Source of the DNA: the human T2T-CHM13v2.0 reference genome, Homo sapiens | DNA length: 64,000 bases | Direction: 5' to 3' | NCBI GenBank assembly: GCA_009914755.4 | Contig: CP068257.2 | Coordinates: 6,816,001 to 6,880,000, forward strand | Shown: in pieces, positions 40,001 to 64,000 of the stretch | Layout of the letters: each line of letters opens with the position of its first letter | Numbering within the stretch: position 1 is the stretch's first letter | Notes under the pieces: generated by a model | Database searches by the model: none | What the model was told of the DNA's origin: nothing | The model's input: only the letters and a program-made list of their open reading frames with translations | Translations under genes and position numbers: made by a program

Positions 40001-43000
40001 CTGAAGTATATATTATGTACTGTAGATAAAACATCAATGTACACCAAGTATATATTGTATATTGTACAAAAAATATCAAAGCATACAAAGTATATATTAT
40101 ATACTGTACATAACATATCAAAGTACGCAAAGTATATATTATATACTGTATATAAAATATCAAATTACTCAAACTATATACTATATACTGCACATAAAAT
40201 ATCAAACTGCCGAAACTTTATATTATATACTGTACATAAAATATCAAATTACCCAAACTTTATATTTTATACAGTACATAAAATATTAAAGTACACCAAA
40301 TATATATTATATAGTGTACATAAAATATAGAGGTAAACAAACTATACATTATATACTCTACATAAAATATGAAAGTACAAAACTATATATTATATACTGT
40401 ACATAAAATATCAAAGTACCCACACTACATATTATATACTGCACATAGAATATCAATGTACCCAAACTATATATTATATACTGAACATAAAATATCAAAG
40501 TACCCACACTATATATTATATACTGTACATAAAATATCAAATTACACACAATATATATTATATACTGTACATAAAATATCAAAGTACACAATGTTTATAA
40601 TGTATATTGTACATAAAATATGAAAATACCCTATATATTATATACTGTACATAAATATCAAAGGACCAAATATATATATTATATACTGTACATAAAATAT
40701 CAATCTACAAAAACTACATATTCTATACTCTACATAAAATATCAAAGTACACCAAATATATATTCTATACTGTACATAAAATATCAAAGTACACCAACTA
40801 TATATTATATAATATACATAAAATATCAAAGTACACCAAATATATATTCTATACTGTACAACAAATATCAACATTTCCACACTATATATCTTATACTGTA
40901 CATAAAATATCAAAGCACACAAACTGTATATTATACTCTGTACATAAAATATCAAAATACACAAACTACATATTTTATACTGTACATAAAATATCAAGGT
41001 ACAAAAAATATATATTATATACTGTACATAAAATGTCAAAGGACACAAAATATATATTATAAACTGTACATAAAATATCAAAGGACCCAAAATATATATT
41101 ATATATTATAAACAAAATATCAAAGGACCCAAAATATATATTACATACTGTACATAATATATCAAAGTACCCAAAATACATATTATATACTTAACATAAA
41201 ACATCAAAGGACCCAAAATACATATGATATCCAGTACATAAAATATCACACTACTCAAATTATATATTATATACTGTACATAAAATATCAAACTACACAA
41301 ATTGTATATTTTATACTCTACATAAAATATAAAGGTACCCAAACTATATATTATATACTGTACATAAAATATCAAAGAACACAAACTGTATATTATACAC
41401 TATACATAAAATATCAAAGTACACAAACTACATATTATATACTGTACATAAAATATCAAATTACCAAAAATATATATTTTATACTGTACATAAAATATCA
41501 AAGGAACCAAACTATATATTATAAACTGTAGATAAAATATCAAAGAACCCAAAATATATATTACATACTGTAAACAAAATATCGAAGGACCCAAAATATA
41601 TATTGTATACTGTACATAAGATATCAAAGTACCCAAAACACATATTATATACTTTACATAAAACATCAAAGTACCCAAAATATACAAGATATACTGTACA
41701 TAAAATATCACTCTACTCAAATTATAAATTATATACTGTACATAAAATATGAAAGTACCCAAAATTTATATTACATACTCCACATAAAATATCAAAGTAC
41801 ACAAACTGTATATTATACACTGTACATAAAATATCAAAGTACACAAACTATATTTTATATACTGTACAGAAAATATGAAAGTACCCAAACTATACTTTAT
41901 AACTGTACATAAATATCAAAGTAACCAAACTAAATATTATATACTGTACATAAAATATCAAACTCCTCCAACTATATATTCTATACTGTACATAAAATAT
42001 CAAAGTACAGCAAATATATATTCTATACTGTACATAAAATATCAAAGTACACCAAATATATATTCAATACTGTACATAAATCTCAAAGTATGCAAAGTAT
42101 ATATTATATAATGTACATAAAATATCAAAGTATCCGAAGAATATATTATGAACTCTACATAAAATATCAAAGTCAACAAACTTTATATTATACACGGTAC
42201 ATAAAAAATCAAAATACATCAAATATATAGTATATACTGTACATAACATATCAAAGTACCCCAACTATATATTATATACTGTACATAAAATTTCAAAGTA
42301 CCAAAAATAAATATTATATACAGTACATAAAATATAAAATACCCACACTATATATTATATACTGTACATAAAACATCAAAGTACCCAATATTTTTATTGT
42401 ATACTGTACATAAAATATCAAAGTACCCAAAATATATATTATAAACTGTACATAAAATATCAAAGGACCCAAAATATATATTATATACTGTACATAAAAT
42501 ATAAAATTAACCTAAATATATATTATAAACTGTACATAAGATACCAAAGTACCCAAAATATGTATTATATACCTAAGATAAAACATCAAAGCACCCAAAA
42601 TATATATGATATCCTGAACATAAAATATCACACTACACAAATTATATATTATATAATGTACATAAAATATCAAAGTGCCCAAAATATATGTTATGTACTG
42701 TACATAAAATACCAAAGCACACAAACTGTATATAAAACACTGTACTTAAAATATCAAAGTACACAACTAAATATTGTATACTCTACATAAAATATTAAAG
42801 TACCCAATATATATATTATATACAATACATAAAATATCAAAGGACACAAAATATATATTATAAACTGTATATAAAATTTCAAAGGACCCAAAATATATAT
42901 TATATACTGTACAGAATATATCAAATTACCCAAAATATCTATTATATACTGTACATAAGTTATCAAAGTACCCAAAATATGTATTATGTAGTTTACATAA

Positions 43001-43971
43001 ATCATCAAAGTACCCAAAATATATATGATATCCTATACATAAAATATCACATTATTCCAATTATATATTATATGCTGTACATAAATTATCAAAGAACCCA
43101 AAATTTATATTATATACTGTACATAAAATATCAAAATACACAAACTGTATATTATACACTGTATATAAAATATCAAAGTACACAAGCTACATATTATATA
43201 CTGTACATAAATTATCAATGTACCCAATATATATATTATACACTGTATGTAAAATATCAAAGTACACAAACTCTATATTATACACTGTACATAAAATACC
43301 AAAGTACAAAACTATGTTTTATATACTGTACATGAAATGTGAAAGTACACTAATTATTTTACATACTATACATAAATATCAAAGGACAGAAACTATATAT
43401 TATATACTGTACATAAAATATCAAAGTACCTAAAATATATATTAAATACTGTACATAAAATATCAATGTACACAAACTATATATTACATATCGTACATAA
43501 AATATCAAAGTATGCAAAATATGTAGTATAGACTGTACATAAAATATCAAAGTACCCAGAATATATATTATATACTGTACATAAAATATCAAAGTACACA
43601 AAATATATATTATATAATATACATAAAATATCAAAGTTCCCAGAATATGTATTATATACTGTACATAAAATTACAAAGTAACCAAAATATATATTAAATA
43701 CTGTACATAAAATATCAAAGTACAGAAACTGAATACTATACACAGAACATAATATATCAAAGTACACAGACCATGTTTTACATACTGTACATAAAAAAAC
43801 AAAGAACCCAAACTATATTTTATATACTGTACATAAAATATCAAAGTACCCAAACTATATATTATATACAGTACATAAAATATCAAAGTACCCAAAATAT
43901 ATATTATATACTGTACATAAAATATGAATGTACCCAAACTATATATTACATACTGTATATAAACATTGAAT
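37055..43971 (+). repeat. Classical satellite I, a 42-bp AT-rich repeat (HSat1A/SAR type), ~165 monomers. The + strand reads ACATAAAATATCAAAGT (17 bp) + ACCCAAACTATATATTATATACTGT (25 bp).
   Basis: There is a strict 42-bp periodicity of ...gtacataaaatatcaaagtacccaaactatatattatatact... Stretches at 38400-38650 are near-consensus. The 17+25 bipartite structure matches my recollection of satellite I. Monomers diverge roughly 5-20%, and I see no obvious higher-order repeat. Confidence 0.85.
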
Positions 43972-46378
43972 GCAGCAACACAGGTTCCCCATGAGAAAAA
44001 TGAAACTCAGGGAAAATAAAACCACAAAGGTTTAATCTCTTCTGACTTTTGAGAAACACAACACAGAGAGTGGCCCTTAGGACCAAGAGCAGGAGATCCC
44101 TAATCCCGTCACCAAGGCGATAGGGCACAAACATTGCAGGGTGAGGGCACAATCCACATTGTGAGGTCCAACTGCTGCCGGGAAGAGAGGAGTGTTTTTA
44201 CATATACCCAAAGGTCATTGAAGGCTCAGTGATTTGTTTCAAAAACTGAATCCCAAGCCCACACATTATTATGCTGCGCTTCTTAAAACAAGTTATGAGA
44301 TGGGAAATAGGGCACCCACAAATGTATCTATACATTATGTATATAATAATATATAGAATCATATATATAATATATGTAACTTATATATATATAATATTGT
44401 TTTACATCATGTTCTTATATTATATATATTATATGTAAGGTAATAATTGATAATATATAAGTATTATATTTATACAATATGACATATAATAATTGAATTT
44501 TGTGACATATATAATATATATTATATATGATACATAGAATATATTATATGGTTAATATACGAATTAAATATATAATATGCATAATATATATTACATATAT
44601 TATATCTATGTTATATATAACATACATTATAGATAATATATATATTGTATCTACGTTATATATAATATAAAATAACACAAAATGATATATAAATGTATAT
44701 ATATAATATGACATATAATATACATTATATTTTATGACATATATATAATATATATTATATATTATATATGTAAGACGTTGTATGTATAATGCATATATTA
44801 AATATATATGATATGTCTACGTTATTAATTATATGTAATATATGTTATATATTATATATTTCACATGGAATACACATGTTACCTATAATATATACTATGG
44901 TACCTATAACGTATAATTTATGATATGTAATATACTGTATGTCATATATTATATATAATTCATAATATACAGTATGTGGAATGTGGTATATATGACATAT
45001 AATATATAATATATATAACATACAATATATCATATATAACAAAGAATATATGATACATAATATATATGGTATACAAAATATATATTATGATATATATTAT
45101 ATATGTTTTATATCATATTATATATAACTATTTAAAATTATATATAACTGTATAATAGTATACGTAAATATATAATATAATAAACATGACTATATATTAT
45201 GTTATATATAATTTTATTACATACGTTACATAATATATGATAATATAATGCATATATTATATTATTTTATATTCCATAATATATATTATATATCACATAA
45301 TATATGCTGCATACATAATATTAAAATATATATTATATTATGATATATGAAATATCGTATATATTATGTATCCTATATTGTATAATATACATTATATATT
45401 ATATAACATGAATGTTGTCTATCATATGATATATAAAATTATATATATGATTATATTGTTATACATATAACGATATAAATATGTAATTATATGTATCATT
45501 ATTTATATTATATATTATTATATAATCATTTATAATTATTTATATTATATAAATAATTTTATGATTATATAAATTATAATATATAAATTATACTATGTAA
45601 TAAAAAATATATATATTATATATCATATATGATATAGTATATATGTTATATATCATATTATATATAAATATATGTTATGTTATATACAATTATATATTTT
45701 CATATATAAGATGTATAATATGTATTATCTATTATATATGTTATGTAGTATATATAATGTAAATAAGCTGACACAGGATAAATATTACATATTATGATAT
45801 ATAATATATATGAGGTTATATATTACATATAAAGCATATTACAAAACTTATAATATATATCATGTATAATTTTTTTTTAGACAGAGCCTTGTCCTGTTGC
45901 ACAGCGTGAGGTACAATGGCGCCATCTTTACTCACTGCAACATCTGCCTCACGGGTTCAAGCGATTGTCCTCCCTCAGCCTCCCAGGTAGCTGGGAGTAC
46001 ACCACACTGGGACTACACCAGCTGCCACCATGCCTAGCTAAACTTTTGGATTTTTAGTAGTGACAGCGTTTCACTGTATTGGCCAGGATGGTCTTGATCT
46101 CTTCACCTTGTGATCCCCTTGCCTTGGCCTCCAAATTTCCTGGGATTACAGGCCTGAGCCAAGATACATGTTTTTTAAATGAAAAAGAATTTCAAAGCTA
46201 CTCTGCTTGGGACAAGAATCAAATATATAAACTGAGGAATAAAACATAACCATGAAACATATTTATAACTGCATATGGAAAATACAGAGGATAATTTTTT
46301 AAATAACATATTTTGAAAGCATTAACTAGTAATTTGAAGAGTTGGCATTTGAAAGGCCCGTATGAATATACCTTCAAA
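43972..46378. repeat. 2.4-kb unit U0, variant type B (head)
   Basis: Anchor to anchor. It shares tttatgatatgtaatatactg, caaagaatatatgatacat, gcgtgaggtac and aataattttatgattatataaattataat with U2. Confidence 0.8.
45871..46160 (-). mobile_element. Alu (SINE) fragment, antisense, old and CpG-decayed. It is a fixed part of the 2.4-kb unit.
   Basis: The reverse complement reads GGCTCAGGCCTGTAATCCCAGGAAATTTGGAGGCCAAGG...GGTGAAACGCTGTCACTACTAAAAATCCAAAAATTTAGCTAGGCATGGTGGC...GGGAGGCTGAGGGAGGACAATCGCTTGAACCCGTGAGGCAGATGTTGCAGTGAG...CTCTGTCTAAAAAAAAA. It is clearly Alu, with a poly-A tail read as T9 on the + strand. Confidence 0.9.
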
Positions 46379-46730
46379 GCAGCAACACAGGTTCCCCATG
46401 AGAAAAATCAAACTCAGGGAAAATAAAACCACAAGGGTTCACTCTGTTCTGACCTTTGAAAAACACAGCACAGACAGTGGCCCTTAGGACCAAGAGCAGG
46501 AGATCCCTAATCCCGTCACCACGGCGATAGGGCACAAACATTGCAGGGTGAGGGCACAATCCACATTGTGAGGTCCAGCTGCTGCCGGGAAGACAGGAGT
46601 GCTTTTACATAGACCCAAAGGTCATTGAAGGCTCAGTGTTTTCTTTCAAAAACTGAATCCCAAGCCCACACATTATTATGCTGCGCTTCTTAAAACAAGT
46701 TATGAGATGGGAAATAGGGCACCCACAAAT
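46161..46730. other. GC-richer, non-AT, non-Alu ~570-bp segment of the 2.4-kb unit. It lies immediately next to the Alu 5' end on the + strand, and its origin is unassigned. The example given is U0/U1; the equivalent segment occurs in every unit.
   Basis: aagatacatgttttttaaatgaaaaagaatttcaaagctactctgcttggg...gcagcaacacaggttccccatgagaaaaatcaaactcaggg...gtgagggcacaatccacattgtgaggtccaactgctgccggg...cacccacaaatatatctatacattatg. It is neither satellite-like nor Alu. It is conserved from copy to copy only because the units are ~98% identical. Confidence 0.7.
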
Positions 46731-48779
46731 ATATCTATACATTATGTATATAATAGTATATAGAATCATATATATAATATATGTAACATATATATATACT
46801 ATTCTTTTACACCCTGCATCTTATATTGTATATATTATATGTAATATAGTAACTGAAAATATATAAGTATAATATTTATACAATATGACATATAATAATT
46901 ATATATTATGACATATATAGTATATATTATATATCATATATAGAATATATTATATGGTTAATATACGTACTAAATATATAATATACATTATATATAATAT
47001 ATATATTATATCTATGTTATATATAACATACATTATAGATAATATATATATTATATCTATGTTATATATAATATCAAATAACATAAAAAATAAAATTGTA
47101 TATATATAAAATGACATATAATATATATTATATTTTATGACATATATAATATATATTATATATTATATATGTAATACGTTGTATGTATAATGCATACATT
47201 AAATATATATGATATGTGTACGTTATTAATTATATGTAATATATGTTATATATTATATATTTTACATGGAATACACATGTTACATATAATATATACTATG
47301 TTACCTATAACGTATAATTTATTATATATAATATACTGTATGTCACATATTATATATAATTCATATTATACAGTATGTGGAATGTGGTATATATGACATG
47401 TAATATATGATATATATAACATACAATATATCATATATAACATACAATATATGATACATAATATATATGGTATACAAAATATATATTATGGTATATATTG
47501 TATATGTTTTATATTATATGATATATAACTATTTAAAATTATATATAACTGTATAATATTATACGTAAATATATAATATAATAAACATGACTATATATTA
47601 TGTTATATATAATTTTATTACATACGTTACATAATATATCATAATATACTGCATATATTATATTATTTTATATTCCATAATATATATTATATATCACATA
47701 ATATATGCTGCATACATAATATTAAAATATATATTATATTATGATATATGAAATATCGTATATATTATGTATCCTATATTGTATAATATACATGACATAT
47801 TATATAACATGTATGTTGTCTATCATATGATATATAAAATTATATATATGATTATATTGTTATACATATAACGATATAAATATGTAATTATATGTATCAT
47901 TATTTATATTATATATTATTATATAATCATTTATAATTATTTATATTATATAAATAATTAAATGATTCTACAAATTATAATATATAAATTATACTATGTA
48001 ATAAAAAATATATATATTATATATCATATATGATATAGTATATATGTTATATATCATATTATATATAAATATATGTTATGTTATATACAATTATATATTT
48101 TCATATATAAGATGTATAATATGTATTATCTATTATATATGTTATGTACTATATGTAATGTAAATAAGCTGACACAGGATAAATATTACATATTATGATA
48201 TATAATATCTATGAGGTTATATATTACATATAAAGCATATTACAAAACATATAATATATATCATGTATAATTTTTTTTTAGACAGAGCCTTGTCCTGTTG
48301 CACAGCGTGGGGTACAATGGCGCCATCTTTACTCACTGCAACATCTGCCTCACGGGTTCAAGCGATTGTCCTCCCTCAGCCTCCCAGGTAGCTGGGAGTA
48401 CACCACACTGGGACTACACCAGCTGCCACCATGCCTAGCTAAATTTTTGGATTTTTAGTAGTGACAGCGTTTCACTGTATTGGCCAGGATGGTCTTGATC
48501 TCTTCACCTTGTGATCCCCTTGCCTTGGCCTCCAAATTTCCTGGGATTACAGGCCTGAGCCAAGATACATGTTTTTTAAATGAAAAAGAATTTCAAAGCT
48601 ACTCTGCTTGGGACAAGAATCAAATATATAAACTGAGGAATAAAACATAACCATGAAACATATTTATAACTGCATATGGAAAATACAGAGGATAATTTTT
48701 TAAATAACATGTTTTGAAAGCATTAACTAGTAATTTGAAGAGTTGGCATTTGAAAGGCCCGTATGAATATACCTTCAAA
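46379..48779. repeat. 2.4-kb unit U1, variant type A (head)
   Basis: It carries gtaatatagtaactgaaaat, attatatattatgacatatatagtatat and aaaattgtatatatataaaatgacat. The same set is in U6. Confidence 0.8.
48271..48561 (-). mobile_element. Alu fragment (unit copy)
   Basis: Same sequence as 45871-46160, one period (2400 bp) downstream. Confidence 0.9.
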
Positions 48780-51169
48780 GCAGCAACACAGGTTCCCCAT
48801 GAGAAAAATCAAACTCAGGGAAAATAAAACCACAAGGGTTCACTCTGTTCTGACCTTTGAAAAACACAGCACAGACAGTGGCCCTTAGGACCAAGAGCAG
48901 GAGATCCCTAATCCCGTCACCACGGCGATAGGGCACAAACATTGCAGGGTGAGGGCACAATCCACATTGTGAGGTCCAACTGCTGCCGGGAAGACAGGAG
49001 TGCTTTTACATAGACCCAAAGGTCATTGAAGGCTCAGTGTTTTGTTTCAAAAACTGAATCCCAAGCCCACACATTATTATGCTGTGCTTCTTAAAACAAG
49101 TTATGAGATGGGAAATAGGGCACCCACAAATATATCTACACATTATGTATATAATAGTATATAGAATCATATATATAATATATGTAACATATATATATAC
49201 TATTCTTTTACACCCTGCATCTTATATTATATATATTATATGTAATATAATAATTGAAAATATATAAGTATAATATTTATACAATATGACATATAATAAT
49301 TATATTTTATGACATATATAATATATATTATATATCATATATAGAATATATTATATGGTTAATATACGTACTAAATATATACTATACATTATATATATTA
49401 TATCTATTATATCTATGTTATATGTAACATACATTATAGATAATATATATATCATATCTATGTTATATATAATATAAAATAACAAAATAATATAATTATA
49501 TATATATAATATGACATATAATATATATTATATTTTATGACATATATAATATATATTATATATTATATATGTAATACGTTGTATGTATAATGCATACATT
49601 AAATATATATGATATGTGTACGTTATTAATTATATGTAATATATGTTATATATTATATATTTTACATGGAATACACATGTTACATATAATATATACTATG
49701 GTACCTATAACGTATAATTTATGATATGTAATATACTGTATGTCATATATTATATATAATTCATAATATACAGTATGTGGAATGTGGTATATATGACATA
49801 TAATATATGATATATATAACATACAATATATCATATATAACAAAGAATATATGATACATAATATATATGGTATACAAAATATATATTATGATACATATTA
49901 TATATGTTTTATATCATATTATATATAACTATTTAAAATTATATATAACTGTATAATATTATACGTAAATATATAATATAATAAACATGACTATATATTA
50001 TGTTATATATAATTTTATTACATAAGTTACATAATATATGATAATATAATGCATATATTATATTATTTTATATTCCATAATATATATTATATATCACATA
50101 ATATATGCTGCATACATCATATTAAAATATATATTATATTATGATATATGAAATATCGTATATATTATGTATCCTATATTGTATAATATACATTATATAT
50201 TATATAACATGTATGTTGTCTATCATATGATATATAAAATTATATATATGATTATATTGTTATACATATAACGATATAAATATGTAATTATATGTATCAT
50301 TATTTATATTATATATTATTATATAATCATTTATAATTAATAAATAATTTTATGATTATATAAATTATAATATATAAATTATACTATGTAATAAAAAATA
50401 TATATATTATATATCATATATGATATAGTATATATGTTATATATCATATTATATATAAATATATGTTATGTTATATACAATTATATATTTTCATATATAA
50501 GATGTATAATGTGTATTATCTATTATATATGTTATGTACTATATATAATGTAAATAAGCTGACACAGGATAAATATTACATATTATGATATATAATATAT
50601 ATGAGGTTATATATTACATATAAAGCATATTACAAAACATATAATATATATCATGTATAATTTTTTTTTAGACAGAGCCTTGTCCTGTTGCACAGCGTGA
50701 GGTACAATGGCGCCATCTTTACTCACTGCAACATCTGCCTCACGGGTTCAAGCGATTGTCCTCCCTCAGCCTCCCAGGTAGCTTGGAGTACACCACACTG
50801 GGACTACACCAGCTGCCACCATGCCTAGCTAAATTTTTGGATTTTTAGTAGTGACAGCGTTTCACTGTATTGGCCAGGATGGTCTTGATCTCTTCACCTT
50901 GTGATCCCCTTGCCTTGGCCTCCAAATTTCCTGGGATTACAGGCCTGAGCCAAGATACATGTTTTTTAAATGAAAAAGAATTTCAAAGCTACTCTGCTTG
51001 GGACAAGAATCAATTATATAAACTGAGGAATAAAACATAACCATGAAACATATTTATAACTGCATATGGAAAATACAGAGGATAATTTTTTAAATAACAT
51101 ATTTTGAAAGCATTAACTAGTAATTTGAAGAGTTGGCATTTGAAAGGCCCGTATGAATATACCTTCAAA
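48780..51169. repeat. 2.4-kb unit U2, variant type B
   Basis: It shares the U0 variants. The tail has a small deletion (ttataattaataaataattttatg). Confidence 0.8.
50661..50951 (-). mobile_element. Alu fragment (unit copy)
   Basis: Periodic copy. It carries the gcgtgaggtac variant. Confidence 0.9.
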
Positions 51170-53571
51170 GCAGCAACACAGGTTCCCCATGAGAAAAATC
51201 AAACTCAGGGAAAATAAAACCACAAGGGTTCACTCTGTTCTGACCTTTGAAAAACACAGCACAGACAGTGGCCCTTAGGACCAAGAGCAGGAGATCCGTA
51301 ATCCCGTCACCACGGCGATAGGGCACAAACATTGCAGGGTGAGGGCACAATCCACATTGTGAGGTCCAACTGCCTCCGGGAAGACAGAAGTGCTTTTACA
51401 TAGACCCAAAGGTCATTGAAGGCTCAGTGTTTTGTTTCAAAAACTAAATCCCAAGCCCAGACATTATTATGCTGCGCTTCTTAAAACAAGTTATGAGATG
51501 GGAAATAGGGCACCCACAAATATACCTATACATTATGTATATAATAGTATATAGAATCATATATATAATATATGTAACATATATATATAATATTCTTTTA
51601 CACCCTGCATCTTATATTATATATATTATATGTAATATAATAATTGAAAATATATAAGTATAATATTTATACAATATGACATATAATAATTATATTTTAT
51701 GACATATATAATATATATTATATATCATATATAGAATATATTATATGGTTAATATACGTACTAAATATATACTATACATTATATATATTATATCTATTAT
51801 ATCTATGTTATATATAACATACATTATAGATAATATATATATCATATCTATGTTATATATAATATAAAATAACAAAATAATATAATTATATATATATAAT
51901 ATGACATATAATATATATTATATTTTATGACATATATATAATATATATTATATATTATATATGTAATACGTTGTATGTATAATGCATACATTTAATATAT
52001 ATGATATGTGTACGTTATTAATTATATGTAATATATGTTATATATTATATATTTTACATGGAATACACATGTTACATATAATATATACTATGGTACCTAT
52101 AACGTATAATTTATTATATATAATATACTGTATGTCACATATTATATATAATTCATATTATACAGTATGTGGAATGTGGTATATATGACATGTAATATAT
52201 GATATATATAACATACAATATATCATATATAACATACAATATATGATACATAATATATATGGTATACAAAATATATATTATGACATATATTGTATATGTT
52301 TTATATTATATGATATATAACTATTTAAAATTATATATAACTGTATAATATTATACGTAAATATATAATATAATAAACATGACTATATATTATGTTATAT
52401 ATAATTTTATTACATACGTTACATAATATATCATAATATACTGCATATATTATATTATTTTATATTACATAATATATATTATATATCACATAATATATGC
52501 TGCATACATAATATTAAAATATATATTATATTATGATATATGAAATATCGTATATATTATGTATCCTATATTGTATAATATACATGACATATTATATAAC
52601 ATGTATGTTGTCTATCATATGATATATAAAATTATATATATGATTATATTGTTATACATATAACGATATAAATATGTAATTATATGTATCATTATTTATC
52701 TTATATATTATTATATAATCATTTATAATTATTTATATTATATAAATAATTAAATGATTCTACAAATTATAATATATAAATTATACTATGTAATAAAAAA
52801 TATATATATTATATATCATATATGATATAGTATATATGTTATATATCATATTATATATAAATATATGTTATGTTATATACAATTATATCTTTTCATATAT
52901 AAGATGTATAATATGTATTATCTATTATATATGTTATGTACTATATATAATGTAAATAAGCTGACACAGGATAAATATTACATCTTATGATATATAATAT
53001 CTATGAGGTTATATATTACATATAAAGCATATTACAAAACATATAATATATATCATGTATAATTTTTTTTTAGACAGAGCCTTGTCCTGTTGCACAGCGT
53101 GGGGTACAATGGCGCCATCTTTACTCACTTCAACATCTGCCTCACGGGTTCAAGCGATTGTCCTCCCTCAGCCTCCCAGGTAGCTGGGAGTACACCACAC
53201 TGGGACTACACCAGCTGCCACCATGCCTAGCTAAATTTTTGGATTTTTAGTAGTGACAGCGTTTCACTGTATTGGCCAGGATGGTCTTGATCTCTTCACC
53301 TTGTGATCCCCTTGCCTTGGCCTCCAAATTTCCTGGGATTACAGGCCTGAGCCAAGATACATGTTTTTTAAATGAAAAAGAATTTCAAAGCTACTCTGCT
53401 TGGGACAAGAATCAAATATATAAACTGAGGAATAAAACATAACCATGAAACATATTTATAACTGCATATGGAAAATACAGAGGATAATTTTTTAAATAAC
53501 ATGTTTTGAAAGCATTAACTAGTAATTTGAAGAGTTGGCATTTGAAAGGCCCGTATGAATATACCTTCAAA
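51170..53571. repeat. 2.4-kb unit U3, variant type C (head)
   Basis: It carries tatatataatattcttttac, atgcatacatttaatat and gacatgtaatatatgat...catacaatatatgatacat. It shares the TMVPITYN and YIYNILL artefact-ORF variants with U7. Its tail Alu has the cttcaac variant. Confidence 0.8.
53063..53353 (-). mobile_element. Alu fragment (unit copy)
   Basis: Periodic copy. It carries the ctcacttcaac variant. Confidence 0.9.
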
Positions 53572-55968
53572 GCAGCAACACAGGTTCCCCATGAGAAAAA
53601 TCAAACTCAGGGAAAATAAAACCACAAGGGTTCACTCTGTTCTGACCTTTGAAAAACACAGCACAGACAGTGGCCCTTAGGACCAAGGGCAGGAGATCCC
53701 TACTCCCGTCACCACGGCGATAGGGCACAAACATTGCAGGGTGAGGGCACAATCCACATTGTGAGGTCCAACTGCTGCCGGGAAGACAGGAGTGCTTTTA
53801 CATAGACCCAAAGGTCATTGAAGGCTCAGTGTTTTGTTTCAAAAACTGAATCCCAAGCCCACACCTTATTATGCTGCGCTTCTTAAAACAAGTTAGGAGA
53901 TGGGAAATAGGGCACCCACAAATATATCTATACATTATGTATATAATAGTATATAGAATCATATATATAATATATGTAACATATATATATACTATTCTTT
54001 TACACCCTGCATCTTATATTATATATATTATATGTAATATAATAATTCAAAATATATAAGTATAATATTTATACAATATGACATATAATAATTATATTTT
54101 ATGACATATATAATATATATTATATATCATATATAGAATATATTATATGGTTAATATACGTACTAAATATATAATATACATTATATATATTATATCTATT
54201 ATATCCATGTTATATATAACATACATTATAGATAATATATATATTATATCTATGTTATATATAATATAAAATAACATAAAATAATATAATTATATATATA
54301 ATATGACATATAATATATATTATATATAATGACATATATATAATATATATTATATATTATATAGGTAATACGTTGTATGTATAATGCATATATTAAATAT
54401 ATATGATATGTCTACGTTATTAATTATATGTAATATATGTTATATATTATATATTTTACATGGAATACACATGTTACATATAATATATACTATGTTACCT
54501 ATAACGTATAATTTATTATATATAATATACGTAAGTCATATATTATATATAATTCATAATATACAGTATGTGGAATGTGGTATATATGACATGTAATATA
54601 TGATATATATAACATACAATACATCATATATAACAAAGAATATATGATACATAATATATATGGTATACAAAATATATATTATGATATATATTATATATGT
54701 TTTATATTATATTATATATAACTATTTAAAATTATATATAACTGTATAATATTATACGTAAATATATAATATAACATGACTATATATTATGTTATATATA
54801 ATTTTATTACATACGTTACATAATATATGATAATATAATGCATATATTATATTATTTTATATTCCATAATATATATTATATATCACATAATATATGCTGC
54901 ATACATAATATTAAAATATATATTATATTATGATATATGAAATATCGTATATATTATGTATCCTATATTGTATAATATACATTATATATTATATAACATG
55001 AATGTTGTCTATCATATGATATATAAAATTATATATATGATTATATTGTTATACATATAACGATATAAATATGTAATTATATGTATCATTATTTATCTTA
55101 TATATTATTATATAATCATTTATAATTATTTATATTATATAAATAATTAAATGATTCTAAAAATTATAATATATAAATTATACTATGTAATAAAAAATAT
55201 ATATATTATATATCATATATGATATAGTATATATGTTATATATCATATTATATATAAATATATGTTATGTTATATACAATTATATCTTTTCATATATAAG
55301 ATGTATAATATGTATTATCTATTATATATGTTATGTACTATATATAATGTAAATAAGCTGACACAGGATAAATATTACATCTTATGATATATAATATCTA
55401 TGAGGTTATATATTACATATAAAGCATATTACAAAACATATAATATATATCATGTATAATTTTTTTTTAGACAGAGCCTTGTCCTGTTGCACAGCGTGGG
55501 GTACAATGGCGCCATCTTTACTCACTTCAACATCTGCCTCACGGGTTCAAGCGATTGTCCTCCCTCAGCCTCCCAGGTAGCTGGGAGTACACCACACTGG
55601 GACTACACCAGCTGCCACCATGCCTAGCTAAATTTTTGGATTTTTAGTAGTGACAGCGTTTCACTGTATTGGCCAGGATGGTCTTGATCTCTTCACCTTG
55701 TGATCCCCTTGCCTTGGCCTCCAAATTTCCTGGGATTACAGGCCTGAGCCAAGATACATGTTTTTTAAATGAAAAAGAATTTCAAAGCTACTCTGCTTGG
55801 GACAAGAATCAAATATATAAACTGAGGAATAAAACATAACCATGAAACATATTTATAACTGCATATGGAAAATACAGAGGATAATTTTTTAAATAACATG
55901 TTTTGAAAGCATTAACTAGTAATTTGAAGAGTTGGCATTTGAAAGGCCCGTATGAATATACCTTCAAA
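53572..55968. repeat. 2.4-kb unit U4, variant type D (head)
   Basis: It carries ttaggagatgg, cacaccttattatg, ccctactcccg, ataggtaatacg and atacgtaagtcatat. The tail resembles the U3 tail (ttatttatcttatat; Alu cttcaac). Confidence 0.8.
55461..55750 (-). mobile_element. Alu fragment (unit copy)
   Basis: Periodic copy. It carries the ctcacttcaac variant. Confidence 0.9.
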
Positions 55969-58365
55969 GCAGCAACACAGGTTCCCCATGAGAAAAATCA
56001 AACTCAGGGAAAATAAAACCACAAGGGTTCACTCTGTTCTGACCTTTGAAAAACACAGCACAGACAGTGGCCCTTAGGACCAAGGGCAGGAGATCCCTAC
56101 TCCCGTCACCACGGCGATAGGGCACAAACATTGCAGGGTGAGGGCACAATCCACATTGTGAGGTCCAACTGCTGCCGGGAAGACAGGAGTGCTTTTACAT
56201 AGACTCAAAGGTCATTGAAGGCTCAGTGTTTTGTTTCAAAAACTGAATCCCAAGCCCACACCTTATTATGCTGCGCTTCTTAAAACAAGTTAGGAGATGG
56301 GAAATAGGGCACCCACAAATATATCTATACATTATGTATATAATAGTATATAGAATCATATATATAATATATGTAACATATATATATACTATTCTTTTAC
56401 ACCCTGCATCTTATATTATATATATTATATGTAATATAATAATTCAAAATATATAAGTATAATATTTATACAATATGACATATAATAATTATATTTTATG
56501 ACATATATAATATATATTATATATCATATATAGAATATATTATATGGTTAATATACGTACTAAATATATAATATACATTATATATATTATATCTATTATA
56601 TCCATGTTATATATAACATACATTATAGATAATATATATATTATATCTATGTTATATATAATATAAAATAACATAAAATAATATAATTATATATATAATA
56701 TGACATATAATATATATTATATATAATGACATATATATAATATATATTATATATTATATAGGTAATACGTTGTATGTATAATGCATATATTAAATATATA
56801 TGATATGTCTACGTTATTAATTATATGTAATATATGTTATATATTATATATTTTACATGGAATACACATGTTACATATAATATATACTATGTTACCTATA
56901 ACGTATAATTTATTATATATAATATACGTAAGTCATATATTATATATAATTCATAATATACAGTATGTGGAATGTGGTATATATGACATGTAATATATGA
57001 TATATATAACATACAATACATCATATATAACAAAGAATATATGATACATAATATATATGGTATACAAAATATATATTATGATATATATTATATATGTTTT
57101 ATATTATATTATATATAACTATTTAAAATTATATATAACTGTATAATATTATACGTAAATATATAATATAACATGACTATATATTATGTTATATATAATT
57201 TTATTACATACGTTACATAATATATGATAATATAATGCATATATTATATTATTTTATATTCCATAATATATATTATATATCACATAATATATGCTGCATA
57301 CATAATATTAAAATATATATTATATTATGATATATGAAATATCGTATATATTATGTATCCTATATTGTATAATATACATTATATATTATATAACATGAAT
57401 GTTGTCTATCATATGATATATAAAATTATATATATGATTATATTGTTATACATATAACGATATAAATATGTAATTATATGTATCATTATTTATATTATAT
57501 ATTATTATATAATCATTTATAATTATTTATATTATATAAATAATTTTATGATTATATAAATTATAATTTATAAATTATACTATGTAATAAAAAATATATA
57601 TATTATATATCATATATGATATAGTATATATGTTATATATCATATTATATATAAATATATGTTATGTTATATACAATTATATATTTTCATATATAAGATG
57701 TATAATATGTATTATCTATTATATATGTTATGTAGTATATATAATGTAAATAAGCTGACACAGGATAAATATTACATATTATGATATATAATATATATGA
57801 GGTTATATATTACATATAAAGCATATTACAAAACATATAATATATATCATGTATAATTTTTTTTTAGACAGAGCCTTGTCCTGTTGCACAGCGTGAGGTA
57901 CAATGGTGCCATCTTTACTCACTGCAACATCTGCCTCACGGGTTCAAGCGATTGTCCTCCCTCAGCCTCCCAGGTAGCTGGGAGTACACCACACTGGGAC
58001 TACACCAGCTGCCACCATGCCTAGCTAAATTTTTGGATTTTTAGTAGTGACAGCGTTTCACTGTATTGGCCAGGATGGTCTTGATCTCTTCACCTTGTGA
58101 TCCCCTTGCCTTGGCCTCCAAATTTCCTGGGATTACAGGCCTGAGCCAAGATACATGTTTTTTAAATGAAAAAGAATTTCAAAGCTACTCTGCTTGGGAC
58201 AAGAATCAAATATATAAACTGAGGAATAAAACATAACCATGAAACATATTTATAACTGCATATGGAAAATACAGAGGATAATTTTTTAAATAACATATTT
58301 TGAAAGCATTAACTAGTAATTTGAAGAGTTGGCATTTGAAAGGCCCGTATGAATATACCTTCAAA
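55969..58365. repeat. 2.4-kb unit U5, mosaic: D-type head (~1.5 kb identical to U4) + B-type tail
   Basis: The head shares every U4-specific variant. The tail has aataattttatgattatataaattataat and Alu gcgtgaggtac, as in U0 and U2. Confidence 0.8.
57858..58147 (-). mobile_element. Alu fragment (unit copy)
   Basis: Periodic copy. It carries the gtgaggtacaatggtgcc variant. Confidence 0.9.
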
Positions 58366-60767
58366 GCAGCAACACAGGTTCCCCATGAGAAAAATCAAAC
58401 TCAGGGAAAATAAAACCACAAGGGTTCACTCTGTTCTGACCTTTGAAAAACACAGCACAGACAGTGGCCCTTAGGACCAAGAGCAGGAGATCCCTAATCC
58501 CGTCACCACGGCGATAGGGCACAAACATTGCAGGGTGAGGGCACAATCCACATTGTGAGGTCCAACTGCTGCCGGGAAGACAGGAGTGCTTTTACATAGA
58601 CCCAAAGGTCATTGAAGGCTCAGTGTTTTGTTTCAAAAACTGAATCCCAAGCCCACACATTATTATGCTGCACTTCTTAAAACAAGTTATGAGATGGGAA
58701 ATAGGGCACCCACAAATATATCTATACATTATGTATATAATAGTATATAGAATCATATATATAATATATGTAACATATATATATACTATTCTTTTACACC
58801 CTGCATCTTATATTATATATATTATATGTAATATAGTAACTGAAAATATATAAGTATAATATTTATACAATATGACATATAATAATTATATATTATGACA
58901 TATATAGTATATATTATATATCATATATAGAATATATTATATGGTTAATATACGTACTAAATATATAATATACATTATATATATTATATATATTATATCT
59001 ATGTTATATATAACATACATTATAGATAATATATATATTATATCTATGTTATATATAATATAAAATAACAAAAAAAAATAAAATTGTATATATATAAAAT
59101 GACATATAATATATATTATATTTTATGACATATATAATATATATTATATATTATATATGTAATACGTTGTGTGTATAATGCATACATTAAATATATATGA
59201 TATGTGTACGTTATTAATTATATGTAATATATGTTATATATTATATATTTTACATGGAATACACATGTTACATATAATATATACTATGTTACCTATAACG
59301 TATAATTTATTATATATAATATACTGTATGTCACATATTATATATAATTCATATTATACAGTATGTGGAATGTGGTATATATGACATGTAATATATGATA
59401 TATATAACATACAATATATCATATATAACATACAATATATGATACATAATATATATGGTATACAAAATATATATTATGATATATATTGTATATGTTTTAT
59501 ATTATATGATATATAACTATTTAAAATTATATATAACTGTATAATATTATACGTAAATATATAATATAATAAACATGACTACATATTATGTTATATATAA
59601 TTTTATTACATACGTTACATAATATATCATAATATACTGCATATATTATATTATTTTATATTACATAATATATATTATATATCACATAATATATGCTGCA
59701 TACATAATATTAAAATATATATTATATTATGATATATGAAATATCGTATATATTATGTATCCTATATTGTATAACATACATGACATATTATATAACATGT
59801 ATGTTGTCTATCATATGATATATAAAATTATATATATGATTATATTGTTATACATATAACGATATAAATATGTAATTATATGTATCATTATTTATATTAT
59901 ATATTATTATATAATCATTTATAATTATTTATATTATATAAATAATTAAATGATTATACAAATTATAATATATAAATTATACTATGTAATAAAAAATATA
60001 TATATTATATATCATATATGATATAGTATATATGTTATATATCATATTATATATAAATATATGTTATTTTATATACAATTATATATTTTCATATATAAGA
60101 TGTATAATATGTATTATCTATTATATATGTTACGTACTATATATAATGTAAATAAGCTGACACAGGATAAATATTACATATTATGATATATAATATCTAT
60201 GAGGTTATATATTACATATAAAGCATATTACAAAACATATAATATATATCATGTATAATTTTTTTTTAGACAGAGCCTTGTCCTGTTGCACAGCGTGGGG
60301 TACAATGGCGCCATCTTTACTCACTGCAACATCTGCCTCACGGGTTCAAGCGATTGTCCTCCCTCAGCCTCCCAGCTAGCTGGGAGTACACCACACTGGG
60401 ACTACACCAGCTGCCACCATGCCTAGCTAAATTTTTGGATTTTTAGTAGTGACAGCGTTTCACTGTATTGGCCAGGATGGTCTTGATCTCTTCACCTTGT
60501 GATCCCCTTTCCTTGGCCTCCAAATTTCCTGGGATTACAGGCCTGAGCCAAGATACATGTTTTTTAAATGAAAGAGAATTTCAAAGCTACTCTGCTTGGG
60601 ACAAGAATCAAATATATAAACTGAGGAATAAAACATAACCATGAAACATATTTATAACTGCATATGGAAAATACAGAGGATAATTTTTTAAATAACATAT
60701 TTTGAAAGCATTAACTAGTAATTTGAAGAGTTGGCATTTGAAAGGCCCGTATGAATATACCTTCAAA
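58366..60767. repeat. 2.4-kb unit U6, variant type A
   Basis: Across 58830-58935 it is identical to U1 46850-46955, including tagtaactg, tatattatgac and tatagtatat. Confidence 0.8.
60260..60549 (-). mobile_element. Alu fragment (unit copy)
   Basis: Periodic copy. Confidence 0.9.
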
Positions 60768-63169
60768 GCAGCAACACAGGTTCCCCATGAGAAAAATCAA
60801 ACTCAGGGAAAATAAAACCACAAAGCTTCACTCTGTTCTGACCTTTGAAAAACACAGCACAGACAGTGGCCCTTAGGACCAAGAGCAGGAGATCCCTAAT
60901 CCCGTCACCACGGCGATAGGGCACAAACATTGCAGGGTGAGGGCACAATCCACATTGTGAGGTCCAACTGCTGCCAGGAAGACAGGAGTGCTTTTACATA
61001 GACCCAAAGGTCATTGAAGGCTCAGTGTTTTGTTTCAAAAACTGAATCCCAAGCCCACACATTACTATGCTGCGCTTCTTACAACAAGTTATGAGATGGG
61101 AAATAGGGCACCCACAAATATATCTATACATTATGTATATAATAGTATATAGAATCATATATATAATATATGTAACATATATATATAATATTCTTTTACA
61201 CCCTGCATCTTATATTATATATATTATATGTAATATAATAATTGAAAATATATAAGTATAATATTTATACAATATGACATATAATAATTATATTTTATGA
61301 CATATATAATATATATTATATATCATATATAGAATATATTATATGGTTAATATACGTACTAAATATATACTATACATTATATATATTATATCTATTATAT
61401 CTATGTTATATATAACATACATTATAGATAATATATATATCATATCTATGTTATATATAATATAAAATAACAAAATAATATAATTATATATATATAATAT
61501 GACATATAATATATATTATATTTTATGACATATATATAATATATATTATATATTATATATGTAATACGTTGTATGTATAATGCATACATTTAATATATAT
61601 GATATGTGTACGTTATTAATTATATGTATTATATGTTATATATTATATATTTTACATGGAATACACATGTTACATATAATATATACTATGGTACCTATAA
61701 CGTATAATTTATTATATATAATATACTGTATGTCACATATTATATATAATTCATATTATACAGTATGTGGAATGTGGTATATATGACATGTAATATATGA
61801 TATATATAACATACAATATATCATATATAACATACAATATATGATACATAATATATATGGTATACAAAATATATATTATGACATATATTGTATATGTTTT
61901 ATATTATATGATATATAACTATTTAAAATTATATATAACTGTATAATATTATACGTAAATATATAATATAATAAACATGACTATATATTATGTTATATAT
62001 AATTTTATTACATACGTTACATAATATATCATAATATACTGCATATATTATATTATTTTATATTACATAATATATATTATATATCACATAATATATGCTG
62101 CATACATAATATTAAAATATATATTATATTATGATATATGAAATATCGTATATATTATGTATCCTATATTGTATAATATACATGACATATTATATAACAT
62201 GTATGTTGTCTATCATATGATATATAAAATTATATATATGATTATATTGTTATACATATAACGATATAAATATGTAATTATATGTATCATTATTTATATT
62301 ATATATTATTATATAATCATTTATAATTATTTATATTATATAAATAATTAAATGATTCTACAAATTATAATATATAAATTATACTATGTAATAAAAAATA
62401 TATATATTATATATCATATATGATATAGTATATATGTTATATATCATATTATATATAAATATATGTTATGTTATATACAATTATATCTTTTCATATATAA
62501 GATGTATAATATGTATTATCTATTATATATGTTATGTACTATATATAATGTAAATAAGCTGACACAGGATAAATATTACATCTTATGATATATAATATCT
62601 ATGAGGTTATATATTACATATAAAGCATATTACAAAACATATAATATATATCATGTATAATTTTTTTTTAGACAGAGCCTTGTCCTGTTGCACAGCGTGG
62701 GGTACAATGGCGCCATCTTTACTCACTGCAACATCTGCCTCACGGGTTCAAGCGATTGTCCTCCCTCAGCCTCCCAGGTAGCTGGGAGTACACCACACTG
62801 GGACTACACCAGCTGCCACCATGCCTAGCTAATTTTTTGGATTTTTAGCAGTGACAGCGTTTCACTGTATTGGCCAGGATGGTCTTGATCTCTTCACCTT
62901 GTGATCCCCTTGCCTTGGCCTCCAAATTTCCTGGGATTACAGGCCTGAGCCAAGATACATGTTTTTTAAATGAAGAAGAATTTCAAAGCTACTCTGCTTG
63001 GGACAAGAATCAAATATATAAACTGAGGAATAAAACATAACCATGAAACATATTTATAACTGCATATGGAAAATACAGAGGATAATTTTTTAAATAACAT
63101 ATTTTGAAAGCATTAACTAGTAATTTGAAGAGTTGGCATTTGAAAGGCCCGTATGAATATACCTTCAAA
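60768..63169. repeat. 2.4-kb unit U7, variant type C
   Basis: It shares the atgcatacatttaatat, TMVPITYN and YIYNILL variants with U3. Private changes are caaagcttcac and ctgccaggaag. Confidence 0.8.
62661..62951 (-). mobile_element. Alu fragment (unit copy)
   Basis: Periodic copy. Confidence 0.9.
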
Positions 63170-64000
63170 GCAGCAACACAGGTTCCCCATGAGAAAAATC
63201 AAACTCAGGGAAAATAAAACCACAAGGGTTCACTCTGTTCTGACCTTTGAAAAACACAGCACAGACAGTGGCCCTTAGGACCAAGAGCAGGAGATCCCTA
63301 ATCCCGTCACCACGGCGATAGGGCACAAACATTGCAGGGTGAGGGCACAATCCACATTGTGAGGTCCAACTGCTGCCGGGAAGACAGGAGTGCTTTTACA
63401 TAGACCCAAAGGTCATTGAAGGCTCAGTGTTTTCTTTCAAAAACTGAATCCCAAGCCCACACATTATTATGCTGCGCTTCTTAAAACAAGTTATGAGATG
63501 GGAAATAGGGCACCCACAAATATATCTATACATTATGTATATAATAGTATATAGAATCATATAAATAATATATGTAACATATATATATACTATTCTTTTA
63601 CACCCTGCATCTTATATTATATATATTATATGTAATATAATAATTGAAAATATATAAGCATAACATTTATACAATATGACATATAATAATTATCTTTTAT
63701 GACATATATAATATATATTATATATCATATATAGAATATATTCTATGGTTAATATACGTACTAAATATATAATATACATTATATATATTATATCTATTAT
63801 ATCTATGTTATATATAACATACATTATACATAATATATATTATATCTATGTTACATATAATATAAAATAACATAAAATAATATAATTGTATGTATATAAT
63901 ATGACATATAATATATATTATATTTTATGACATATATATAATATATATTATATATTATATATGTAATACGTTGTATGTATAATGCATATATTAAATATAT
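63170..64000. repeat. 2.4-kb unit U8 (partial; the window ends)
   Basis: It has the anchor plus the GC-richer segment and the beginning of the AT-rich tract. It shares tgttttctttcaaaaac with U1 and is otherwise the common type. Confidence 0.75.

What the first reader, a model, noticed from the sequence alone, without database searches (positions are those of the whole stretch)
43972..64000. Mosaic, non-adjacent sharing of variant blocks among the 2.4-kb units (A,B,C,D head types; swapped tails)
Head types (the first ~1.5 kb after the anchor) run U0=B, U1=A, U2=B, U3=C, U4=D, U5=D, U6=A, U7=C. U1 and U6 are identical over diagnostic stretches (58830-58935 = 46850-46955) and lie 5 units apart. 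U3 and U7 lie 4 units apart, and U0 and U2 lie 2 units apart. U4 and U5 are adjacent and share every private variant for ~1.5 kb. Tails (the last ~0.9 kb including the Alu) sort differently. U5 carries a B-type tail (gcgtgaggtac, aataattttatgattatat) on a D-type head. U3 and U4 share a tail (ctcacttcaac, ttatttatcttatat). This is direct evidence for unequal crossing-over and gene conversion operating at sub-unit resolution inside the array. It is not yet a simple fixed higher-order repeat.
Basis: seen in the sequence. Interest (0 to 1): 0.5.

Follow-up and report, generated by a model that had tools for sequence, protein, structure and literature searches.

The report
Recombinant mosaic in a 2.4-kb satellite array

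Summary
Window 43972-64000 holds 8 full and 1 partial unit (2390-2407 bp) of an HSat1B-type satellite. Each unit has a GC-richer segment, an AT-rich core and an old antisense Alu. The array begins directly after a 42-bp HSat1A array and (AATGG)n HSat3.

The mosaic is real.
- Of 64 parsimony-informative sites, 563 of 2016 site pairs fail the four-gamete test.
- Compatible sites cluster along the unit (permutation p<1e-4), and at least 7 exchanges are needed.

- One coordinate pair is 7 nt out of register.
- U0 and U2 are not one head type.
- The U3/U4/U5 pattern is a single register-shifted duplication of one unit, 52605-55001 = 55002-57398 with 2 mismatches. This is the signature of one unequal crossover with its breakpoint inside a 95-nt interval.

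Older shared blocks lie 4 and 5 units apart, and no fixed higher-order period appears. The half-unit at the array edge carries about 5% private changes.

The units are only about 88% identical to the canonical 2,420-bp DYZ2 unit, and the neighbouring HSat3 repeats every ~7.8 kb rather than 3.5 kb. A Yq12 origin is therefore doubtful. This is known biology of low novelty.

The parts
43972..64000 (+). HSat1B-type 2.4-kb tandem array. U0 43972-46378, U1 46379-48779, U2 48780-51169, U3 51170-53571, U4 53572-55968, U5 55969-58365, U6 58366-60767, U7 60768-63169, U8 63170-64000 (partial; the array runs off the window).
   Evidence: 30-mer anchor hits with spacings of 2407, 2401, 2390, 2402, 2397, 2397, 2402 and 2402. 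The MAFFT alignment has 2410 columns, 186 of them variable.
52605..55001 (+). Copy 1 of a recent one-unit tandem duplication (U3 tail plus U4 head). Its register is shifted about 1.44 kb from the anchor.
   Evidence: Gapless 2397-nt alignment to 55002-57398 with 2 mismatches, at 52763/55160 and 53808/56205. It is the best-scoring diagonal, exceeding every one of 300 null permutations.
55002..57398 (+). Copy 2 of the same duplication (U4 tail plus U5 head).
55002..55096 (+). The 95-nt interval in hybrid unit U4 (alignment columns 1444-1538) that must contain the unequal-crossover breakpoint. The homologous intervals are 52605-52699 in U3 and 57399-57493 in U5.
   Evidence: The self-match at lag 2397 runs from 52605 to 55096, which is 2397+95 nt. 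MaxChi places the breakpoint between columns 1443 and 1539: U4 against U5/U3 gives Fisher p=1.7e-12, and U5 against U4/U2 gives p=1.8e-8. U5 against U4/U0 gives p=6.9e-13 with a wider bracket, columns 1211-1539.
45182..49541 (+). Older shared block, copy a (U0 column 1214 through U1 to U2 column 770).
   Evidence: 4377 columns with 34-35 differences (0.78%) to 57169-61529, 5 units away, against a 2.08% background. The score of 1963 exceeds the null maximum of 1857. The core that is most secure runs from U0:1214 to the end of U1.
57169..61529 (+). Older shared block, copy b (U5 column 1214 through U6 to U7 column 770). This explains the B-type tail of U5 and the U1=U6 match.
51526..53129 (+). 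Block shared by U3 and U7 (columns 357-1968), copy a.
   Evidence: 1612 columns with 2 differences to 61124-62727, 4 units away. By contrast there are 12 differences in columns 1-356 (Fisher p=2e-7).
61124..62727 (+). Block shared by U3 and U7, copy b.
43972..44883 (+). Diverged half-unit at the array edge (U0 columns 1-915).
   Evidence: 42 of the 46 singletons of U0 lie here (binomial p=5.5e-14). Of 50 private columns scored in the alignment that includes the outgroups, 36 match neither outgroup and 10 keep the DYZ2 state that all other units have lost.
51298..51525 (+). Cluster of all 7 private substitutions of U3 within 228 nt. It is a candidate conversion patch from a donor outside the window, or a clustered mutation event.
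   Evidence: All 7 singletons fall in columns 129-356 (p=7e-8), and 6 of 7 are absent from both outgroups.
53063..53354 (-). Ancient Alu-derived segment of the unit, shown here for U3. The others are at 45870-46161, 48271-48562, 50661-50952, 55460-55751, 57857-58148, 60259-60550 and 62661-62952.
   Evidence: No Rfam hit reaches a gathering score.
37055..43971 (+). Flanking 42-bp AT-rich HSat1A-type array that abuts U0 directly.
   Evidence: TRF reports period 42, 165 copies and 82% matches. The junction was read.
5..37058 (+). Flanking (AATGG)n HSat3-type satellite with a ~7.8-kb higher-order period (context only).
   Evidence: TRF. Shared 24-mers: 7332 at lags 7750-7950 against 1027 at lags 3400-3700.

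Best explanation
The region is the first 8.3 units of an HSat1B-family composite satellite. Each unit consists of a GC-richer segment, about 1.5 kb of AT-rich core and a 5'-truncated ancient Alu. The array belongs to a subfamily about 12% diverged from the Y-chromosome DYZ2 type.

Its units carry linked blocks of variants whose genealogy changes along the unit. The cause is repeated out-of-register homologous exchange between copies of the array, with breakpoints inside units. This means unequal sister-chromatid or intrachromosomal crossing-over, possibly with some gene conversion.

SHOWN. One recent unequal crossover, offset by one unit and with its breakpoint in columns 1444-1538, duplicated 2397 bp. 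It created hybrid unit U4, which carries the head of the unit that follows it and the tail of the unit that precedes it.

INFERRED.
- An older copy event placed U0tail-U1(-U2head) and U5tail-U6(-U7head) 5 units apart.
- Another event relates U3 and U7 over about 1.6 kb.
- At least 7 exchanges are needed in total.
- The outermost 0.9 kb of the array has stayed outside this turnover, as expected if crossovers rather than conversions dominate, and it has drifted about 5% away.
For: - Linked blocks. 64 informative sites fall into a few recurring splits that change between columns 1-850, 930-1450 and 1539-2342.
- Four-gamete failures in 563 of 2016 site pairs. The PHI-like statistic is 0.099 against 0.279 under permutation (p<1e-4). 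NSS is 0.97 against 0.72. Rm>=7.
- MaxChi breakpoints all have permutation p=0.0002: U5 against U4/U2 and U4 against U5/U3 between columns 1443 and 1539, U5 against U4/U0 between 1211 and 1539, and U2 against U0/U3 and U0/U7 between 915 and 954.
- Each unit's nearest neighbour changes from segment to segment.
- The low-divergence diagonals cross unit boundaries. The lag-1 run is exactly one unit plus 95 nt long and has 2 mismatches.
- The shared variants are not hypermutable sites: 0 of 64 are CpG transitions, 42 are transversions, and 7 lie next to homopolymers.
- The motif searches are independent of any alignment, and the repeat finder groups the copies the same way.
- Edge effect: 42 of 46 private sites of U0 lie in the first 915 columns.
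- Literature. Unequal exchange is the accepted model for DYZ1/DYZ2 (Rhie et al., 10.1101/2022.12.01.518724). Peripheral units are more diverged (Hallast et al., 10.1101/2022.12.01.518658).
Against: - Only one haplotype and 8.3 units are visible, so donors outside the window are unseen and 'private' variants may be shared further along the array.
- The order and number of the older events cannot be resolved.
- Crossover cannot be separated from conversion for the lag-4 and lag-5 blocks. Both are shorter than their lag, which a single tandem duplication would not produce.
- The accuracy of the assembly in this region cannot be checked here.
Confidence: 0.85

Rival explanations
1. The mosaic is produced mainly by non-reciprocal gene conversion. 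Short tracts are copied between non-adjacent units without any change in copy number, and unequal crossover plays little part.
For: The U3-U7 block (1.6 kb) and the lag-5 block (3.6-4.4 kb) are shorter than the distance between their copies and are flanked by diverged sequence on both sides. The 7 private changes of U3 are confined to 228 nt. Intra-array conversion is being tested as a source of Yq12 de novo variants (PMC13252187).
Against: The best-resolved event is exactly one unit long and tandem, with a single hybrid unit, which is a copy-number change and not a conversion. The edge half-unit has escaped homogenisation. Crossovers predict this, whereas conversion would be expected to reach it. 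Unit lengths of 2390-2407 bp and indels travel together with the blocks.
Confidence: 0.3
2. The shared variants are recurrent, independent mutations at hypermutable sites (CpG, homopolymers, TA-rich slippage). On this view they are not inherited blocks.
For: The core is >85% AT and internally repetitive, with a ~229-bp sub-repeat. Four of the informative events are indels.
Against: None of the 64 informative sites is a CpG transition, 42 are transversions and only 7 adjoin a homopolymer. Identical splits recur at 10-13 consecutive sites. The order of the sites matters, with permutation p<1e-4.
Confidence: 0.02
3. The pattern is an assembly or polishing artefact. Reads from near-identical units were mis-assigned, producing chimeric consensus units and a false duplicate.
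For: Satellite arrays are the regions most prone to assembly error. The U4 duplicate is 99.92% identical to its neighbour.
Against: Units differ by 1-4% (about 20-100 sites per 2.4 kb), which long accurate reads spanning several units can phase easily. The blocks are long and internally consistent, and indels co-segregate with the substitutions. No reads are available here to test this.
Confidence: 0.07
4. The units belong to a fixed multi-unit higher-order repeat, and the window is simply too short to show its period.
For: Similar units recur 4 and 5 units apart.
Against: The lags are inconsistent: 1, 2, 4, 5 and 6. Removing the recent U4 duplication turns them into 3 and 4 rather than one period. 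Mean divergence by lag shows no preferred period, and shared k-mer counts fall steadily across lags 2.4, 4.8, 7.2, 9.6 and 12.0 kb.
Confidence: 0.08

Closest known systems
DYZ2 / HSat1B of human Yq12
   Same: It is a composite ~2.4-kb unit with the same cyclic order of parts: AT-rich core, 5'-truncated ancient Alu, then a GC-richer 'HSATI' segment. It aligns end to end with the 2,420-bp DYZ2 unit. It evolves by unequal exchange, and its peripheral units are more diverged.
   Different: - Identity to DYZ2 is only ~88% overall: 93% in the GC-rich part, 77-89% in the AT-rich core and 95-98% in the Alu and 3' part.
- Units are 2390-2407 bp, not 2413/2420 bp.
- The sequence ATATATC replaces the ACATACG motif.
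- Units differ from one another by 0.6-4%, whereas most DYZ2 copies are >98% identical to their consensus.
- The flanks are HSat1A and a 7.8-kb-period HSat3 instead of 3.5-kb DYZ1.
HSat1B arrays on acrocentric short arms (chr13, 14, 15, 21, 22) and chr10
   Same: These are smaller, less homogeneous HSat1B arrays embedded among HSat3 and HSat1A. On chr15 a diverged HSat3 block lies next to HSat1B (10.64898/2025.12.16.694519; Rhie et al.). The satellite context of the window fits this arrangement.
   Different: No acrocentric reference sequence could be searched here, so membership is an inference from context. The only related non-DYZ2 copy found, metagenome contig L018, is 93% identical and represents yet another subfamily.
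Classical unequal-crossover and concerted-evolution model of tandem arrays (Smith 1976; Dover's molecular drive), cited from my own knowledge. The standard comparison cases are variant-repeat mosaics in minisatellites, rDNA and alpha-satellite HOR haplotypes.
   Same: Hybrid units at crossover points, local duplications, divergent array edges and variant blocks shared by non-adjacent units.
   Different: Nothing differs in principle. This is one more instance, at a 2.4-kb unit size and resolved to a 95-nt breakpoint interval.

Membership tests
HSat1B (HSATI) composite satellite family | A tandem unit of ~2.4-2.5 kb | tested here: met
   Unit lengths are 2390-2407 bp over 8 full units.
HSat1B (HSATI) composite satellite family | The unit consists of a >85% AT core, an ancient Alu fragment and a more GC-rich segment | tested here: met
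   GC is 7-19% across unit positions 401-1900. An Alu lies at positions 1890-2185 (76% to AluY, Alu positions 13-289). GC is 42-56% across positions 1-300.
HSat1B (HSATI) composite satellite family | Sequence homology to a bona fide HSat1B/DYZ2 unit over its whole length | tested here: met
   Identity to L001 is 87-90% over a best segment of ~2.1 kb of each full unit, and the circular 2,420-bp unit aligns over all columns.
Canonical Y-chromosome DYZ2 (Yq12) | Unit of 2,413/2,420 bp with ACATACG at the junction of the HSATI and AT-rich parts | tested here: not met
   L001 circularises to 2,420 bp and carries ACATACG. The window units are 2390-2407 bp and read ATATATC there (the definition comes from Hallast et al.).
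Canonical Y-chromosome DYZ2 (Yq12) | Most units are >98% identical to the DYZ2 consensus | tested here: not met
   Fifteen of the 17 contaminant copies are 98.9-100% identical to L001, and the other two are 96.7% and 97.9%. The window units are 87-90% identical to it (criterion from Rhie et al.).
Canonical Y-chromosome DYZ2 (Yq12) | Alternates with DYZ1, an HSat3 with a ~3.5-kb period | tested here: not met
   The adjacent HSat3 has a ~7.8-kb period, and a 6.9-kb HSat1A array lies in between. A diverged peripheral Yq12 block cannot be strictly excluded.
Product of unequal crossing-over (register-shifted tandem duplication) | Self-identity at a lag of exactly n units, running for n units plus the ambiguous breakpoint interval. 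It contains one hybrid unit whose head matches the next unit and whose tail matches the previous one. | tested here: met
   At lag 2397 the run spans 52605-55096 (2397+95 nt) with 2 mismatches. U4 has the head of U5 and the tail of U3.
Gene-conversion tract | A copy-number-neutral patch identical to a donor and flanked on both sides by recipient-type sequence | tested here: inconclusive
   U3-U7 (columns 357-1968) and the private cluster in U3 (columns 129-356) have this shape, but two crossovers or unseen donors explain them equally well.
Fixed higher-order repeat | A constant multi-unit period at which similarity exceeds that between adjacent units | tested here: not met
   The similar blocks lie at lags 1, 2, 4, 5 and 6 with no common period. 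Only 8 units are visible.

The most novel reading that the evidence does not exclude
The array is an undescribed HSat1B subfamily. Its boundary unit records the leftmost crossover ever fixed in the array, and all of its resolvable exchanges are register-shifted crossovers rather than conversions. If that holds array-wide and across haplotypes, this locus would give a clean, calibratable readout of the rate and tract geometry of unequal sister-chromatid exchange in a non-centromeric human satellite. It would also show that conversion contributes little there.
Probability: 0.12. Interest if true: 0.4.

Novelty: already known. Interest (0 to 1): 0.2.

Why it matters
The finding mainly serves as a correction and a worked example. 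It shows that a pattern described as 'swapped heads and tails' reduces largely to a few out-of-register duplications once the arbitrary unit boundary is ignored. It also shows that the array should not be treated as Y-chromosome DYZ2. The phenomenon is the expected footprint of satellite turnover and opens no new question. Its practical value lies in marker design: the variant blocks and the 95-nt breakpoint could serve as haplotype markers for tracking gain and loss of units in pangenome or pedigree assemblies.

Tried and rejected
- Rfam scan of 43000-64000 found nothing at gathering score, so there is no structured-RNA reading.
- Two viral-contig scans with unit-specific 26- and 27-mers returned 0 hits.
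- An exact-protein look-up of a 56-aa ORF from the invariant Alu and 3' part, tried as a way to fetch more copies, found nothing on record. I ran no further search on a non-coding satellite.
- A GENECONV-like longest-run test works, with five globally significant fragments. However, the private sites of U0 inflate it, and I gave it less weight than the four-gamete, PHI and MaxChi tests.
- I tried to explain all blocks with a single multi-unit duplication or a higher-order repeat, and rejected this. After removing the U4 duplication the remaining lags become 3 and 4, and both blocks are shorter than their lag.
- I considered that the head of U0 might come from another subfamily. Only 10 of its 50 private alleles match DYZ2 and 6 match L018, so most are lineage-specific changes.
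- My first regex-based check and the first MaxChi run timed out and were redone.
- The L018 fragment split failed, and only columns 1-1513 were usable as a second outgroup.

Full report
WHAT IS THERE

The window has three satellite domains. (AATGG)n HSat3-type sequence covers 5-37058. A 42-bp AT-rich repeat covers 37055-43963, with 165 copies. A tandem array with a ~2.4-kb period runs from 43972 to the end of the window.

A 30-mer anchor places the unit starts at 43972, 46379, 48780, 51170, 53572, 55969, 58366, 60768 and 63170. That gives eight full units of 2390-2407 bp (U0-U7) and an 831-nt partial unit, U8.

Each unit has four parts. Positions 1-350 are a GC-richer segment. Positions 350-1890 are an AT-rich core of 7-19% GC. 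A 225-nt 3' segment follows. This is the published anatomy of HSat1B/DYZ2 (Rhie et al.; Hallast et al.).

CHECKING THE OBSERVATION

A MAFFT alignment of the nine units has 2410 columns, 186 of them variable. Pairwise differences single out U1-U6 (21), U3-U7 (19) and U4-U5 (15). All other pairs differ at 38-98 sites.

The two 'B-tail' motifs occur only in U0, U2 and U5. The two U3/U4 tail motifs occur only in those two units.

Several details need correcting.
- The quoted identity 58830-58935 = 46850-46955 is wrong by a 7-nt register shift, giving 48 mismatches. 58837-58942 = 46850-46955 is exact.
- U0 and U2 are not one head type. They differ at 63 sites in the first 1500 columns and share B-type alleles only from column 954 on. 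U2 is C-like at columns 605-727.
- The A and C heads are the same type in columns 930-1450.
- U8 has yet another head type.

IS IT MORE THAN CHANCE OR HOMOPLASY?

Among U0-U7 there are 64 biallelic parsimony-informative events and 92 singletons.
- 563 of 2016 informative-site pairs show all four gametes.
- Incompatibility among neighbouring sites is 0.099 against 0.279 when site order is permuted (0 of 10,000 permutations as low).
- The neighbour-similarity score is 0.97 against 0.72.
- The Hudson-Kaplan minimum is 7 exchanges.

MaxChi triplet tests give sharp breakpoints, all with permutation p=0.0002.
- U5 against U4/U2 and U4 against U5/U3: between columns 1443 and 1539, Fisher p=1.8e-8 and 1.7e-12.
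- U5 against U4/U0: the bracket is wider, columns 1211-1539, Fisher p=6.9e-13.
- U2 against U0/U3 and against U0/U7: between columns 915 and 954.

None of the 64 informative sites is a CpG transition. Of the 64, 42 are transversions, 18 transitions and 4 indels, and only 7 lie beside a homopolymer. Identical splits recur over runs of 10-13 sites. The variants are linked blocks, not recurrent mutations.

WHAT THE MOSAIC REALLY IS

The head/tail description depends on an arbitrary unit boundary. I compared the array with itself at lags of 1-7 units, which shows low-divergence diagonals that cross unit boundaries.

(1) Lag 1. Window 52605-55001 equals 55002-57398: 2397 nt, gapless, 2 mismatches. 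The self-match runs from 52605 to 55096, which is one unit plus 95 nt. That is exactly what one unequal crossover offset by one unit predicts. Hybrid unit U4 carries the head of the following unit (D type) and the tail of the preceding unit (U3 type). The breakpoint lies within columns 1444-1538. This single event accounts for 'U4=U5 head', 'U3=U4 tail' and the contrast between the U4 and U5 tails.

(2) Lag 5. U0:1214 through U1 to about U2:770 (45182-49541) matches U5:1214 through U6 to U7:770 (57169-61529) at 0.78% divergence, against a background of 2.08%. This explains the U1=U6 match and why U5 has a B-like tail. The D-to-B junction at about column 1212 is present in both U4 and U5, so it predates event (1).

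(3) Lag 4. U3 and U7 differ at 2 sites in columns 357-1968 but at 12 sites in columns 1-356 (Fisher p=2e-7).

The scores of (1) and (2) exceed all 300 null permutations, and (3) exceeds the 95% level. Blocks (2) and (3) are shorter than their lags. After removing event (1) they sit at different lags, 4 and 3. They therefore reflect either conversion-like transfers or several superimposed crossovers, and no fixed higher-order repeat is visible.

TWO FURTHER FEATURES

The edge half-unit, U0 columns 1-915 (43972-44883), holds 42 of the 46 singletons of U0 (p=5.5e-14). In the alignment that includes the outgroups, 36 of its 50 private columns match neither outgroup. In 10 of them U0 keeps the DYZ2 state that all other units have lost. 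The outermost part of an array can never be replaced by out-of-register crossover. This is the expected edge effect, and it argues, by inference only, that crossover rather than conversion dominates homogenisation here.

All 7 private substitutions of U3 lie within 228 nt, at 51298-51525 (p=7e-8). This is a candidate conversion patch from a unit beyond the window, or a clustered mutation event.

WHERE IT COMES FROM

A 22-mer from the unit retrieved 17 human-contaminant contigs from bacterial assemblies. Fifteen of them are 98.9-100% identical to L001, and two are outliers at 96.7% and 97.9%. L001 circularises to exactly 2,420 bp and carries ACATACG at the junction of the HSATI and AT-rich parts. 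This matches the DYZ2 consensus described by Hallast et al..

The window units differ from it in several ways.
- They are only 87-90% identical to it.
- They read ATATATC at that motif.
- They are 13-30 bp shorter.
- The neighbouring HSat3 has a ~7.8-kb period, not the 3.5-kb period of DYZ1, and a 6.9-kb HSat1A array lies in between.

A subfamily-specific 24-mer found one metagenome contig, L018. It is 93% identical to the window and 88-90% identical to DYZ2, so it represents a third subfamily.

HSat1B also occurs on the acrocentric short arms and on chr10, and it lies next to HSat3 on chr15. An autosomal, acrocentric-type array is therefore the most likely source, but no human reference could be searched. 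A strongly diverged peripheral Yq12 block or a non-human ape cannot be excluded.

MECHANISM AND CONFIDENCE

- Shown: recombinational mosaicism and one unequal-crossover duplication resolved to 95 nt.
- Inferred: older multi-kb copy events at lags 4-5, exclusion of the edge from turnover, and a minor or unproven role for gene conversion.
- Timing of the recent duplication, as an order of magnitude only. Two differences in 2397 bp imply about 3,000 generations at the short-arm rate of 1.3e-7 per bp per generation quoted. At the genome-average rate it would be about ten times longer.

VERDICT

The pattern is the textbook footprint of satellite turnover by unequal exchange, seen in an HSat1B array that is not canonical DYZ2. 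Novelty is low and interest is low.

Noticed in passing
window 5-37058: The (AATGG)n HSat3-type satellite has a strong higher-order period of ~7.8 kb (lags 7806-7892). Signal at the 3.5-kb period of Y-chromosome DYZ1 is weak.
   Followed up: partly
window 37055-43971: A 6.9-kb array of the 42-bp HSat1A-type repeat (165 copies, 82% matches) sits between HSat3 and the 2.4-kb array and joins U0 directly at 43971/43972. The 42-mer has only short (~28-nt, ~90%) matches inside the AT-rich core of the 2.4-kb unit.
   Followed up: partly
window 43972-44883 (U0 columns 1-915): The half-unit at the array edge carries ~5% private changes, while the rest of U0 has 4 private sites in 1.5 kb. The switch lies between 44883 and 44922.
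   Followed up: yes
window 51298-51525: All 7 private substitutions of unit U3 are packed into 228 nt of the GC-richer segment, and 6 of 7 are absent from both outgroups.
   Followed up: partly
window ~46856-47384 and the homologous positions in the other units: The AT-rich core contains an internal degenerate sub-repeat of ~229 bp (61% identity; k-mer lags 228 and 2172).
   Followed up: no
window ~50340-50350 (U2, alignment columns 1571-1580): U2 alone has a 10-nt deletion (TTTATATTAT) in the AT-rich tail, which accounts for its short length of 2390 bp.
   Followed up: no
L001-L017 (bacterial genome assemblies): Human HSat1B/DYZ2 sequence is present as contamination in 17 bacterial or MAG assemblies. 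L001 (Mycobacterium sp., LZSC01000004.1) is a 2497-nt contig that circularises to one 2,420-bp DYZ2 unit. In L006 a ~1-kb human fragment sits between 100-N gaps inside a 5.16-Mb Nostocoides japonicum scaffold (L006 5897-6920).
   Followed up: partly
L018 (metagenome contig OIJV01000458.1, 2716 nt): This HSat1B copy is 93% identical to the window units and 88-90% identical to DYZ2, which implies at least three diverged HSat1B subfamilies in public data.
   Followed up: partly
window 63170-64000 (U8): The partial ninth unit has its own head type, with 16-23 differences from every other unit in columns 461-839. The diversity of the array continues beyond the window.
   Followed up: partly
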